Below, in pieces: positions 2,778 through 32,016 of a stretch of DNA of 64,000 nt (the first letter of the stretch is position 1; every line of letters starts with the position of its first letter). The position numbers and the translations under genes are program-made. Origin of the DNA: Acidimicrobiia bacterium. GTDB lineage: Bacteria; Actinomycetota; Acidimicrobiia; Spongiisociales; ZC4RG35. Below the pieces are notes generated by a model. That model did no database searches and was not told the origin of the DNA. It worked only from the letters and a program-made list of their open reading frames with translations. The stretch is taken from NCBI GenBank assembly GCA_035281645.1, contig DATEDN010000172.1, positions 4,137 through 68,136 on the forward strand. Direction: 5' to 3'.

Positions 2778-2815
2778 CCAATAACGAAATAGACCAGCCC
2801 AAGTCGGGCTGGTCT
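2778..2815 (-). terminator. intrinsic terminator downstream of the small secreted-protein gene
   Basis: Perfect 10-bp stem agaccagccc/gggctggtct with a 5-nt loop (2791-2815). On the minus-strand transcript it is followed by AUUUCGUUAUU. Confidence 0.55.
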
Positions 2816-2839
2816 ATTTCTGGATAGCTGGACCCAGAT

Positions 2840-29900: not shown

Positions 29901-31434
<1,534 letters not shown>

Positions 31435-31481
31435 CTAGCCGGAGAGCTCGGGAAAGGCGGGGTCACCCTCTCCTCCGGGAC

Positions 31482-31616
31482 CGTTTCTCCCCCCAGCGAG
31501 CAGAGCGAGCATTGGGGGGGAGTGGCCCGCAGGGCCGAGGGGGGTGGGGAATCCGTGGTGATGCCATTTGTTTCCCCCTCCCCGCCTTCGGTGGGTCTCC
31601 CCCTGCGGGGGAGAAA
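31482..31616. repeat. G/C-tract-rich structured element bounded by a 13-bp long-range inverted repeat in the nusB-pyrR intergenic
   Basis: ccgtttctcccccc at 31482-31495 pairs with gggggagaaacgg at 31604-31616. Inside are a local palindrome ccccctgcggggg and several G4-G7 and C4-C7 runs. No convincing ORF. Confidence 0.35.
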
Positions 31617-31650
31617 CGGCTCGATCGAGTGTTGTCGTTCGAGTTACCGC

Positions 31651-32016
31651 TTACTGCCTCAGCCGTTCGGCAAGCTTGGCCAGCACGCCGTTGACAAACG
31701 AACCACTCCGCTCGCTCCCGTAGAGCTTGGCGAGACGAACCGCCTCGGACACCACCACCGCTTTGGGAGTACCCGGCTCGAATCGAAGCTCGTAGAGGCC
31801 GAGGCGCAGTATCGCCCGATCCACCACTGGCATTCGGTGCACCTGCCAGTGCTCAGCGACTGCTTCGATCTCGGCGTCGAGGAGGGGGAGGTTGTCGAGC
31901 ACGCCTTCGACTAATCGGGCAGCCCGGCTGGGAAGTTCGAGCGGATAATCGTCGAGGTCGCGCTGGTCGGCTTCGTAAAGCGCTTCGAGGGCGAGCTGAC
32001 GGGCTTCGATGCTCAC
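31651..32016 (-). CDS. nusB: transcription antitermination factor NusB
   Basis: 121 aa, ARxLALQALYQ-like N-terminus and an FVNGVLAK motif. Sits in an efp-nusB pair. Confidence 0.88.
   Translation of the reverse strand: MSIEARQLALEALYEADQRDLDDYPLELPSRAARLVEGVLDNLPLLDAEIEAVAEHWQVHRMPVVDRAILRLGLYELRFEPGTPKAVVVSEAVRLAKLYGSERSGSFVNGVLAKLAERLRQ

What the first reader, a model, noticed from the sequence alone, without database searches (positions are those of the whole stretch)
31440..31620. A highly structured G/C-tract element with a 13-bp long-range inverted repeat in the nusB-pyrR leader
About 135 nt is bounded by ccgtttctcccccc and gggggagaaacgg. Inside are a perfect local palindrome (ccccctgcggggg) and runs of G4-G7 and C4-C7. 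On the transcript the repeat allows either a long-range helix or local hairpins, which is a riboswitch- or attenuator-like topology. It has no protein-coding signal. It lies upstream of the recognisable PyrR loop, so it is not required to explain pyr regulation. Candidates include an uncharacterised cis-regulatory RNA, an sRNA, a MITE-like inverted-repeat insertion, or a G-quadruplex-prone element.
Basis: seen in the sequence. Interest (0 to 1): 0.55.

Follow-up and report, generated by a model that had tools for sequence, protein, structure and literature searches.

The report
Dispersed palindromic repeat copy, nuclease-gene-linked family
The G/C-tract structure between nusB and pyrR is not a pyrimidine regulator but one gene-less copy of a small four-hairpin repeat found scattered in very different bacteria, whose full-length relatives enclose a DUF559 (Vsr-like) nuclease gene.

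Summary
A 139-nt element (31481-31619) carries a perfect 13-bp terminal inverted repeat, a local palindrome and the only dense cluster of G/C runs in the 64 kb.

The regulatory-RNA reading fails. The element is absent from the same nusB-pyrR spacer in relatives with 72-95% identical NusB. Those spacers are about 50 nt long or hold other, unrelated palindromes. The element also lies upstream of a conserved extended -10 motif that sits just before the PyrR loop.

A 23-nt core of the element matched 69 metagenome stretches, many on the same large contigs, in hosts of 41-70% GC. A covariance model built only from those copies finds the window element at 61.7 bits (E about 1e-13), full length, on the minus strand.

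The unit is H1, H2, a G-run:C-run helix closing a variable loop, H3 and H4, with termini that change together.

At four independent loci, in Alphaproteobacteria and Acidimicrobiia, family modules flank a DUF559 nuclease gene. At two of them (five loci read at the alphaproteobacterial site) the gene fills the variable loop.

Best reading: a non-autonomous, REPIN/MITE-like copy inserted in one lineage. Any role as a nusB 3' stem-loop cluster is inferred. I found no Rfam family or paper describing the family.

The parts
31481..31619 (-). Whole repeat element, 139 nt. Its canonical orientation is the direction of nusB-to-pyrR transcription.
   Evidence: Covariance model R1, built without the window, matches 31482-31616 on the minus strand over its full length: 61.7 bits, E = 1.1e-13. 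Sequence read.
31607..31619 (-). 5' terminal inverted-repeat arm, CCGTTTCTCCCCC. It overlaps the 5' strand of H1.
   Evidence: Exact reverse complement of 31481-31493. Across the family the two termini change together: TTTC with GAAA, TGTC with GACA.
31596..31614 (-). H1 hairpin: TCTCCCCC, loop GCA, GGGGGAGA.
   Evidence: Inverted repeat I8. Aligned to model helix 1.
31581..31595 (-). H2 hairpin: CCCACC, loop GAA, GGCGGG, with one A-C mismatch.
   Evidence: Model alignment. H2 shows compensatory changes across the family.
31574..31580 (-). G-run (GAGGGGG), the 5' strand of the helix that closes the variable loop. In gene-carrying relatives this run lies just upstream of the DUF559 start codon.
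   Evidence: for the alignment. Searches show the G-run just upstream of the ATG in long forms.
31544..31573 (-). Variable loop, 30 nt. This is the position where long forms carry the DUF559 gene. It holds no ORF here.
   Evidence: tblastn with a DUF559 protein against the window finds nothing.
31537..31543 (-). C-run (CCCCCTC), the 3' strand of the loop-closing helix.
   Evidence: L109 and L141 carry GGAGTGTGTG paired with CACACACTCC at the same position, a compensatory variant.
31517..31539 (-). Conserved 23-nt core, CTCGGCCCTGCGGGCCACTCCCC, used to find the family.
   Evidence: The pattern CTCGGCCCTNNGGGCCACTCCCC gave 69 metagenome stretches and 72 matches.
31524..31536 (-). H3 hairpin: GGCCC, loop TGC, GGGCC.
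   Evidence: Compensatory variants: GGTCC/GGACC in L162, GTCCC/GGGAC in L163, CGGCC/GGCCG in L168.
31487..31522 (-). H4 hairpin: CTCCCCCC and GGGGGGAG around a 20-nt loop that holds GCTCGCT twice.
   Evidence: Inverted repeat I9 and direct repeat D6. Model alignment. The same loop type occurs in L113, L126 and L147. The 3' half is 88-90% identical to L113 and L147.
31481..31493 (-). 3' terminal inverted-repeat arm, GGGGGAGAAACGG.
   Evidence: A near-identical contig (L001) has a 1-nt deletion here.
31386..31394 (-). Context, not part of the element: TGCTACCGT, an extended -10-like motif upstream of the PyrR loop.
   Evidence: TGnTAnnnT occurs at the equivalent place in 11 of 13 Acidimicrobiia loci aligned on the PyrR site. 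Promoter function is inferred.
31312..31377 (-). Context: PyrR binding loop overlapping the pyrR ribosome-binding site.
   Evidence: Rfam RF00515 at 28.8 bits, below the gathering score of 54. The sequence is conserved in relatives.
31651..32016 (-). Context: nusB.
   Evidence: PF01029.

Best explanation
The element is one ORF-less (miniature) copy of a dispersed family of G/C-tract palindromic repeats about 105-150 nt long.

The unit, read 5' to 3', is:
- H1, a hairpin of CTCCCCC and GGGGGAG;
- H2, a short hairpin;
- a G-run:C-run helix that closes a variable loop;
- H3, GGCCC, a 3-nt loop, GGGCC;
- H4, a second CTCCCCC/GGGGGAG hairpin.

In long forms a DUF559 (Vsr-like PD-(D/E)xK) nuclease gene sits in the variable loop. 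The G-run then lies just upstream of the start codon, and the reading frame runs into the C-run, H3 and H4.

The window copy entered the spacer between the nusB stop codon and the pyr promoter in one Acidimicrobiia lineage. It is not part of PyrR control.

Shown: family membership, multi-copy dispersal, lineage-specific presence, and association with DUF559.

Inferred: that the copy arrived by mobilisation of a non-autonomous element, as with REPINs or MITEs; and that on the efp-nusB transcript its stable hairpins act, if at all, like REP/BIME stem-loops, as a 3'-end barrier or partial terminator ahead of the pyr promoter.
For: Family membership
- A model built from 25 metagenome copies, window excluded, hits 31482-31616 on the minus strand over its full length: 61.7 bits, E = 1.1e-13. 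Nothing else in the window scores above 14 bits.

Dispersal
- The core pattern gave 69 stretches, including 12 exact-core matches on four contigs of one sample.
- A DUF559 protein on the largest of those contigs is named Oceanicaulis sp. HLUCCA04 (P0159).
- The model finds 146 hits at E < 1e-3 in those loci, counting both strands (most copies also score on the reverse strand). These include copies that lack the exact core.
- Host loci range from 41% to 70% GC.
- L158 and L120 come from Acidimicrobiia MAGs.

Presence/absence at this locus
- The nusB-pyrR spacer is about 41-53 nt in L003 (NusB 72% identical), L085 (79%) and the P0001 contig (92%).
- It holds unrelated sequence in L083 (88%), L084 (95%), L086-L091 (79%) and L092 (74%).
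- The element's left flank and more distal spacer segments are homologous in L084, but the element itself is not there.
- A related, rearranged copy lies at a different site in L083, upstream of efp.

Structure
- Compensatory changes occur in H2, in the loop-closing helix and in H3.
- The two termini co-vary (Fisher p = 2e-4, not corrected for relatedness).

DUF559 link
- The query protein matches PF04480 at E = 4.6e-34.
- The gene is nested between H1-H2-G-run and C-run-H3-H4 in L135, L149, L162, L163 and L167 and in Acidimicrobiia L168.
- C-run-H3-H4 directly follows the gene in L170.
- Family modules follow the gene in L120.
- Many DUF559 proteins end in PLGPSGHSPRKRGE-type tails encoded by the module.
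Against: - Only one copy lies in the 64-kb window. Copy number in this genome is unknown.
- No DUF559 gene is in the window. None was found on contigs of the window's lineage.
- No target-site duplication is visible, and I found no clean empty/filled site pair, so the mechanism of movement is not shown.
- The alphaproteobacterial DUF559 copies all sit at one syntenic site, between acyl-CoA dehydrogenase and thiolase genes. That gene looks vertically inherited rather than jumping.
- The pattern scan selected for the H3 core, so conservation of H3 in those hits is partly ascertainment.
- No expression data exist for any strand.
Confidence: 0.8

Rival explanations
1. Host-exapted stem-loop cluster. 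Whatever its origin, the element now serves as the terminator, insulator or 3'-end stabiliser of the efp-nusB transcript, ahead of the pyr promoter, as REP/BIME elements do in enterobacterial operons. This does not exclude the best explanation.
For: - It sits 31 nt after the nusB stop codon and upstream of the conserved -10-like motif.
- The minus-strand fold is very stable, -81 kcal/mol.
- Sibling lineages carry other long palindromes at the same place.
Against: - No U-tract and no terminator-like call on the minus strand.
- Close relatives manage with a spacer of about 50 nt and no such structure.
- A 1-nt deletion in the terminal repeat occurs in a near-identical strain.
Confidence: 0.25
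2. Remnant formed in place. A full DUF559-carrying element once sat here and lost its gene by deletion between the G-run and the C-run, rather than a miniature copy arriving as such.
For: In long forms the gene occupies exactly the variable loop, so such a deletion would give this structure.
Against: - The 30-nt loop holds no trace of DUF559.
- No relative has a DUF559 gene at this site.
- Short forms far outnumber long ones: 2 of the 69 core-pattern stretches (L135, L149) carry the gene inside the element.
Confidence: 0.1
3. Locus-specific cis-regulatory RNA (riboswitch or attenuator) in the pyr leader that switches between the long-range helix and local hairpins.
For: Alternative pairings exist: H1 and H4 can form local hairpins, or H1 can pair with H4.
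Against: - Absent from orthologous spacers at 72-95% NusB identity.
- Lies upstream of the conserved promoter-like motif.
- The same alternative pairings occur in every family copy at unrelated loci.
- No Rfam match.
Confidence: 0.04
4. Independent small RNA gene on the plus strand, antisense to the operon.
For: The plus strand folds better: -95.9 kcal/mol, z = -3.8.
Against: - No promoter-like site was found, and the one terminator-like site (31318-31332, plus strand) lies outside the element.
- The family's orientation is the minus strand, 61.7 against 39.8 bits.
- There is no conservation at this locus.
- The plus-strand advantage comes from G-U pairs in a near-palindrome.
Confidence: 0.03
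5. Fortuitous GC-rich spacer.
For: A 13-bp inverted repeat alone is expected 0.42 times per window by chance.
Against: Full-length match at E = 1e-13 to a model built from unrelated genomes. The 3' half is 88-90% identical over about 60 nt to L147 and L113.
Confidence: 0.01

Closest known systems
REP / REPIN-RAYT systems and BIMEs (Pseudomonas, Enterobacteria)
   Same: - Short G+C-rich extragenic palindromes, multi-copy, often just after stop codons and inside operon spacers.
- Hairpins kept by compensatory changes, and mosaic combinations of modules.
- A protein gene flanked by the repeats; at the alphaproteobacterial site it is kept at one syntenic place, as described for RAYTs in PMC3116915 and PMC5581495.
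   Different: - The flanked gene is DUF559, a PD-(D/E)xK Vsr-like nuclease, not an IS200/IS605-type tyrosine transposase.
- No GTAG or CGTC tag was identified.
- The unit is a four-hairpin module of about 105-150 nt rather than a doublet of 20-40-nt REPs.
- The family spans at least two phyla.
Bacterial MITEs (Correia/NEMIS, ERIC/IRU, RUP, MITEAba12)
   Same: About 100-150 bp, terminal inverted repeats, no coding capacity, presence/absence between close relatives, intergenic landing sites.
   Different: No target-site duplication seen. No parent insertion sequence with a classical transposase. The long form carries a nuclease gene instead.
Alphaproteobacterial intergenic repeats (RIME, Sm-repeats, Bru-RS, Caulobacter CIR)
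   Same: The same kind of element, in the same class of hosts as the canonical copies.
   Different: I could not compare sequences: none of these is in Rfam, and no paper in the library prints the core. Identity with one of them is neither shown nor excluded.
Free-standing and Vsr-like homing endonuclease genes (the Vsr/DUF559 clan includes a group I intron homing endonuclease; PMC3424549)
   Same: A small nuclease gene of the same fold, lodged in intergenic DNA.
   Different: Homing endonuclease genes are not known to leave many gene-less, hairpin-only copies. No cleavage or homing data exist here.
PyrR attenuator / binding loop (RF00515)
   Same: Lies in the same spacer. It is the real pyr regulatory RNA here.
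   Different: It is a separate feature at 31312-31377, downstream of the promoter-like motif and conserved in all relatives. The G/C-tract element is not.

Membership tests
G/C-tract four-hairpin repeat family defined here (model R1) | Full-length match to a covariance model built from other genomes' copies | tested here: met
   61.7 bits, E = 1.1e-13, model positions 1-116 of 116, minus strand. The window was not in the training set.
G/C-tract four-hairpin repeat family defined here (model R1) | Conserved core CTCGGCCCTNNGGGCCACTCCCC | tested here: met
   Present at 31517-31539 on the minus strand. The same pattern occurs in 69 metagenome stretches.
G/C-tract four-hairpin repeat family defined here (model R1) | Module order H1, H2, G-run, loop, C-run, H3, H4, with complementary GTTTC and GAAAC termini | tested here: met
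   Alignment to the model. Termini checked.
G/C-tract four-hairpin repeat family defined here (model R1) | Several copies in the same genome | tested here: inconclusive
   One copy in 64 kb; the rest of the genome is not available. It is met in other hosts: 12 exact-core matches on four contigs of one sample, the largest contig assigned to Oceanicaulis sp. HLUCCA04.
MITE | Terminal inverted repeats | tested here: met
   13-bp perfect repeat.
MITE | Target-site duplication flanking the element | tested here: not met
   The flanks ...ATCGAG and TCCCGG... are not duplicated. No duplication is seen around 36 family copies.
MITE | Parent autonomous element with a transposase and the same ends | tested here: not met
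   Long forms carry DUF559, not a transposase family.
REPIN-RAYT | Associated RAYT (IS200/IS605-like Y1 transposase) flanked by the repeats | tested here: not met
   The repeat-flanked gene is PF04480 DUF559. No RAYT was seen in any locus, but no systematic search was done.
REPIN-RAYT | Conserved GTAG (or CGTC) tag next to the palindrome | tested here: not met
   No such tag at the hairpin feet in the consensus.
Riboswitch / transcription attenuator of the pyr operon | Conserved in orthologous leaders, with covariation | tested here: not met
   Absent from L003, L083, L084, L085, L086-L092 and the P0001 contig.
Riboswitch / transcription attenuator of the pyr operon | Lies between the transcription start and the regulated gene | tested here: inconclusive
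   The conserved TGnTAnnnT motif places the likely start downstream of the element. There are no transcript data.
Any Rfam 15 family | Score at or above the gathering threshold | tested here: not met
   No hits in the window or in 11 canonical loci. Only sub-threshold chance matches appear in the E-value scan.
G-quadruplex-forming element | Four G3+ runs separated by loops of 1-7 nt | tested here: not met
   The regular-expression scan finds none within 31300-31700 on either strand.

The most novel reading that the evidence does not exclude
DUF559 nucleases and these four-hairpin repeats form a second REPIN/RAYT-like partnership. A resident PD-(D/E)xK (Vsr-like) nuclease gene, embedded in one copy of the repeat, recognises the hairpins and spreads or maintains gene-less copies across the genome. 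This would operate in both Alphaproteobacteria and Acidimicrobiia. In the long form, the G-run next to the start codon and the complementary C-run at the 3' end of the gene would also throttle translation of the nuclease.
Probability: 0.35. Interest if true: 0.7.

Novelty: new member of a known kind. Interest (0 to 1): 0.45.

Why it matters
For this locus the result is a caution. A striking, highly structured sequence in a well-known regulatory spacer is a repeat insertion, not a new riboswitch. The real control elements, a promoter-like motif and the PyrR loop, lie downstream and are conserved.

For the wider field there are two points.

1. DUF559 is a very common domain with few members of tested function. 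Finding it repeatedly embedded, at four independent loci in two phyla, in a conserved hairpin module that also exists as many gene-less copies gives a concrete hypothesis that can be tested. The nuclease may act on these hairpins.

2. The same 23-nt core is kept in genomes from 41% to 70% GC. That points to strong sequence constraint or recent horizontal spread, and either is worth explaining.

Tried and rejected
- Rfam at gathering and E-value thresholds, on the window and on canonical loci: nothing.
- Second copies in the window by pattern search, blastn-short, nhmmer and the covariance model with filters off: none.
- PLSDB plasmids, by distant blastn with the canonical and the window element: no match. 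BLAST's low-complexity filter may contribute to this.
- IMG/VR viral contigs with the core pattern: none.
- Literature searches for the core sequence, for DUF559, for named alphaproteobacterial repeats, and for DUF559 together with REPIN/RAYT/MITE terms. No description was found. One paper lists DUF559 proteins as enriched among predicted inversion targets, which fits flanking inverted repeats.
- An exact empty-site comparison with the closest relative, L084. Only the left flank aligns cleanly, so the insertion boundaries and target could not be defined.
- A DUF559 gene in the window's lineage: no hit on its contigs.
- Integron attC site, considered by eye. The ends read GTTTC...GAAAC, the reverse of the attC R''/R' arrangement (RYYYAAC...GTTRRRY), so I rejected it.
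- The 143-aa ORF inside the L084 insertion has no Pfam match.
- Exact-sequence cluster look-ups to name hosts failed for most loci, because my ORF starts differed from the called genes.

Full report
**Locus.** The window is a metagenome contig of an Acidimicrobiia bacterium. Exact NusB matches lie on ENA ERZ27257124 k141_1514904 and on a Logan contig. The nearest genomes are Acidimicrobiaceae and Acidimicrobiia MAGs. The genes efp, nusB (31651-32016), pyrR, pyrB and pyrC are all on the minus strand. The finding lies in the 320-nt nusB-pyrR spacer.

**Observation.**
- The 13-bp perfect inverted repeat is at 31481-31493 and 31607-31619. The local palindrome and the G/C runs are all present.
- This is the only cluster of 4 or more G5+/C5+ runs per 150 nt in the 64 kb.
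- A 13-bp inverted repeat alone is expected about 0.4 times per window by chance.
- Folding is only moderately better than shuffles: z = -2.7 on the minus strand and -3.8 on the plus strand.
- No Rfam family matches. No canonical G-quadruplex motif is present.

**Orthologous spacers.** I fetched nusB loci from 80 reference genomes. I also fetched closer metagenomic relatives through NusB homologues.

- The PyrR loop is conserved everywhere, but the G/C-tract element is not.
- The distance from the nusB stop codon to the PyrR loop is about 41-53 nt in L003 (NusB 72% identical), L085 (79%) and the P0001 contig (92%). In the window it is 275 nt.
- L083 (88%), L084 (95%), L086-L091 (79%) and L092 (74%) have long spacers filled with different sequence.
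  - L086-L091 carry a 113-nt palindrome with 56-nt arms.
  - L083 carries a 15-bp inverted repeat.
  - L084 carries an insertion of about 1.1 kb.
- The window element's left flank and more distal spacer segments are recognisable in L084, but the element itself is missing there.
- The spacer is therefore hypervariable, a recurrent landing site for palindromic DNA.
- The element is specific to the window's own lineage. The two contigs that carry it differ from the window by at most two changes, one of them a 1-nt deletion in the terminal repeat.

**Promoter-like motif.** When 13 Acidimicrobiia loci are aligned on the PyrR loop, 11 carry a TGnTAnnnT motif upstream of it, mostly within about 20 nt; in L009 it lies about 50 nt away. 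In the window it is TGCTACCGT at 31394-31386 on the minus strand. I read this as an extended -10 promoter element, which is an inference. If so, the G/C-tract element lies upstream of the pyr promoter, in the 3' region of nusB, and not in the pyr leader.

**Family discovery.**
- L083 holds a rearranged look-alike at a different site, upstream of efp.
- The 23-nt core shared by the two, CTCGGCCCTNNGGGCCACTCCCC, matched 69 metagenome stretches with 72 matches in all.
- Many matches lie on the same large contigs: six on a 1.46-Mb contig, and others on three more contigs of that sample.
- A DUF559 protein on the 1.46-Mb contig carries the name Oceanicaulis sp. HLUCCA04 (P0159).
- Host loci range from 41% to 70% GC.
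- L158 and L120 come from Acidimicrobiia MAGs.
- Copies are mostly intergenic by eye, often just after a stop codon. Half-elements and tandem arrays also occur: L141 has three units.

**Anatomy of the unit**.
- H1: (G)TTTC-CTCCCCC-G-nnnn-C-GGGGGAG-G.
- H2: for example GTCAGC-GAA-GCTGAC.
- A G-run, GGAGGGGGG.
- A variable loop of 4-50 nt.
- A C-run, CCCCCCTC.
- H3: GGCCC-TNN-GGGCC.
- H4: CTCCCCCC-G-nnnn-C-GGGGGGAG-AAAC.

H1 resembles the reverse complement of H4. The element can therefore fold either as local hairpins or as one long H1:H4 helix, which is what RNAalifold prefers.

Compensatory changes support several helices:
- H2;
- the loop-closing helix, with GGAGTGTGTG paired to CACACACTCC in L109 and L141;
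- H3, with GGTCC/GGACC, GTCCC/GGGAC and CGGCC/GGCCG.

The termini change together between subfamilies. TTTC goes with GAAA in 13 of 14 copies, and TGTC with GACA in 12 of 16. This count is not corrected for relatedness.

No target-site duplication is visible.

**Membership of the window element.**
- A covariance model built from 25 canonical copies, with the window excluded, matches 31482-31616 on the minus strand over its full length. The score is 61.7 bits, E = 1.1e-13.
- The reverse strand scores 39.8 bits. Nothing else in the window exceeds 14 bits.
- In 502 kb of nusB loci only the L083 copy scores, and weakly.
- The window copy has a degenerate H2 with one A-C mismatch. Its H4 has a 20-nt loop with GCTCGCT twice. 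That loop type is shared with L113, L126 and L147, and the 3' half is 88-90% identical to L113 and L147.

**Link to DUF559.** At four independent loci, family modules flank a DUF559 gene.

1. Between the acyl-CoA dehydrogenase and thiolase genes, in L135, L149, L162 (Marinicauda salina), L163 and L167.
   - The DUF559 gene (PF04480, E = 4.6e-34 for the L135 protein) sits exactly in the variable loop.
   - H1-H2-G-run lies just upstream of the ATG, and the frame reads through C-run-H3-H4.
   - The proteins have diverged to about 60% identity while the flanks stay recognisable. That pattern fits a vertically kept, single-locus gene, which recalls RAYTs.
2. Acidimicrobiia L168, next to ccmF. It has the full H1-H2-G-run / gene / C-run-H3-H4 architecture.
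3. L170, next to ATP synthase genes. C-run-H3-H4 starts 4 nt after the stop codon, and further modules follow.
4. Acidimicrobiia L120. The gene is followed by modules that are 95-100% identical to pieces of dispersed copies.

Dozens of further alphaproteobacterial DUF559 proteins end in PLGPSGHSPRKRGE-like or PPP...GE(D/E) tails. Some begin with SSPxxGG(G/E)V...GGG leaders. These are the translations of such modules.

Among the 69 core-pattern stretches only two (L135, L149) carry the gene inside the element, so gene-less copies dominate.

**What it is.** The window element is a non-autonomous copy of this family. How copies spread is not shown. There is no target-site duplication, no classical transposase and no empty/filled site pair. 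The REPIN-RAYT analogy, with DUF559 as the cognate enzyme, is a hypothesis to which I give about 0.35.

At this locus the element most likely does nothing specific. At most, its stable hairpins may act as a 3' barrier or terminator for efp-nusB, ahead of the pyr promoter. That is an inference by analogy with REP/BIME elements.

**Novelty.** This kind of element, a bacterial interspersed palindromic repeat, is well known. This particular family and its DUF559 association are not in Rfam 15. I also did not find them in the searchable literature. I could not compare the family with older named alphaproteobacterial repeats (RIME, Bru-RS, CIR), so identity with one of them is not excluded.

Noticed in passing
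window 31330-31332 (minus strand): pyrR has no ATG, GTG or TTG between its Shine-Dalgarno sequence (GGAAAGGAG) and the conserved N-terminus. An in-frame CTG lies 7 nt after the GGAG. The same CTGGG(A/C) is kept in L083, L084, L085 and L089, which suggests a conserved CTG start codon.
   Followed up: partly
window 31386-31394 (minus strand) and equivalent positions in L003-L092: A TGnTAnnnT (extended -10-like) motif lies upstream of the PyrR loop in 11 of 13 Acidimicrobiia loci, mostly within about 20 nt (about 50 nt away in L009). It implies a dedicated pyr promoter whose transcript would begin almost at the PyrR hairpin.
   Followed up: partly
L086-L091 (e.g. L089:1242-1354) and L083:3008-3117: Sibling lineages carry a different long palindrome in the same nusB-pyrR spacer. 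L089 has 56-nt arms, 79% complementary, with CCAAATTTGG ends. L083 has a 15-bp perfect inverted repeat. This looks like a second, unrelated palindromic element family using the same landing site.
   Followed up: partly
L084:2850-3990: In the closest relative (NusB 95% identical) the spacer is about 1.1 kb. It contains a 143-aa ORF on the opposite strand with no Pfam match. The nusB gene there is called as 205 aa, although a stop codon lies at the normal place in the window's frame.
   Followed up: partly
L006, L009, L011, L012, L016 (downstream of the PyrR loop): In more distant Acidimicrobiia the PyrR loop and ribosome-binding site are followed by a short upstream ORF of about 20-35 codons before pyrR. 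In the window's clade the loop directly precedes pyrR.
   Followed up: no
window 2786-2820: A perfect 15-16-bp stem-loop, GAAATAGACCAGCCC, loop AAGT, then its complement. It is the only other inverted repeat of 13 bp or more in the window, and it looks like a bidirectional terminator hairpin.
   Followed up: no
L141:54-540: Three family units lie head to tail at a spacing of about 160-190 nt. The middle unit carries an insertion. So the repeat can form short tandem arrays.
   Followed up: no
L169:539-1453: One Acidimicrobiia-type DUF559 gene lies next to an IS110-family transposase gene.
   Followed up: no
PMC9881135, table of gene families: DUF559 domain-containing proteins are listed as enriched (odds ratio 14) among predicted programmed-inversion targets. 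The inverted H1/H4 modules that flank these genes could explain that.
   Followed up: no
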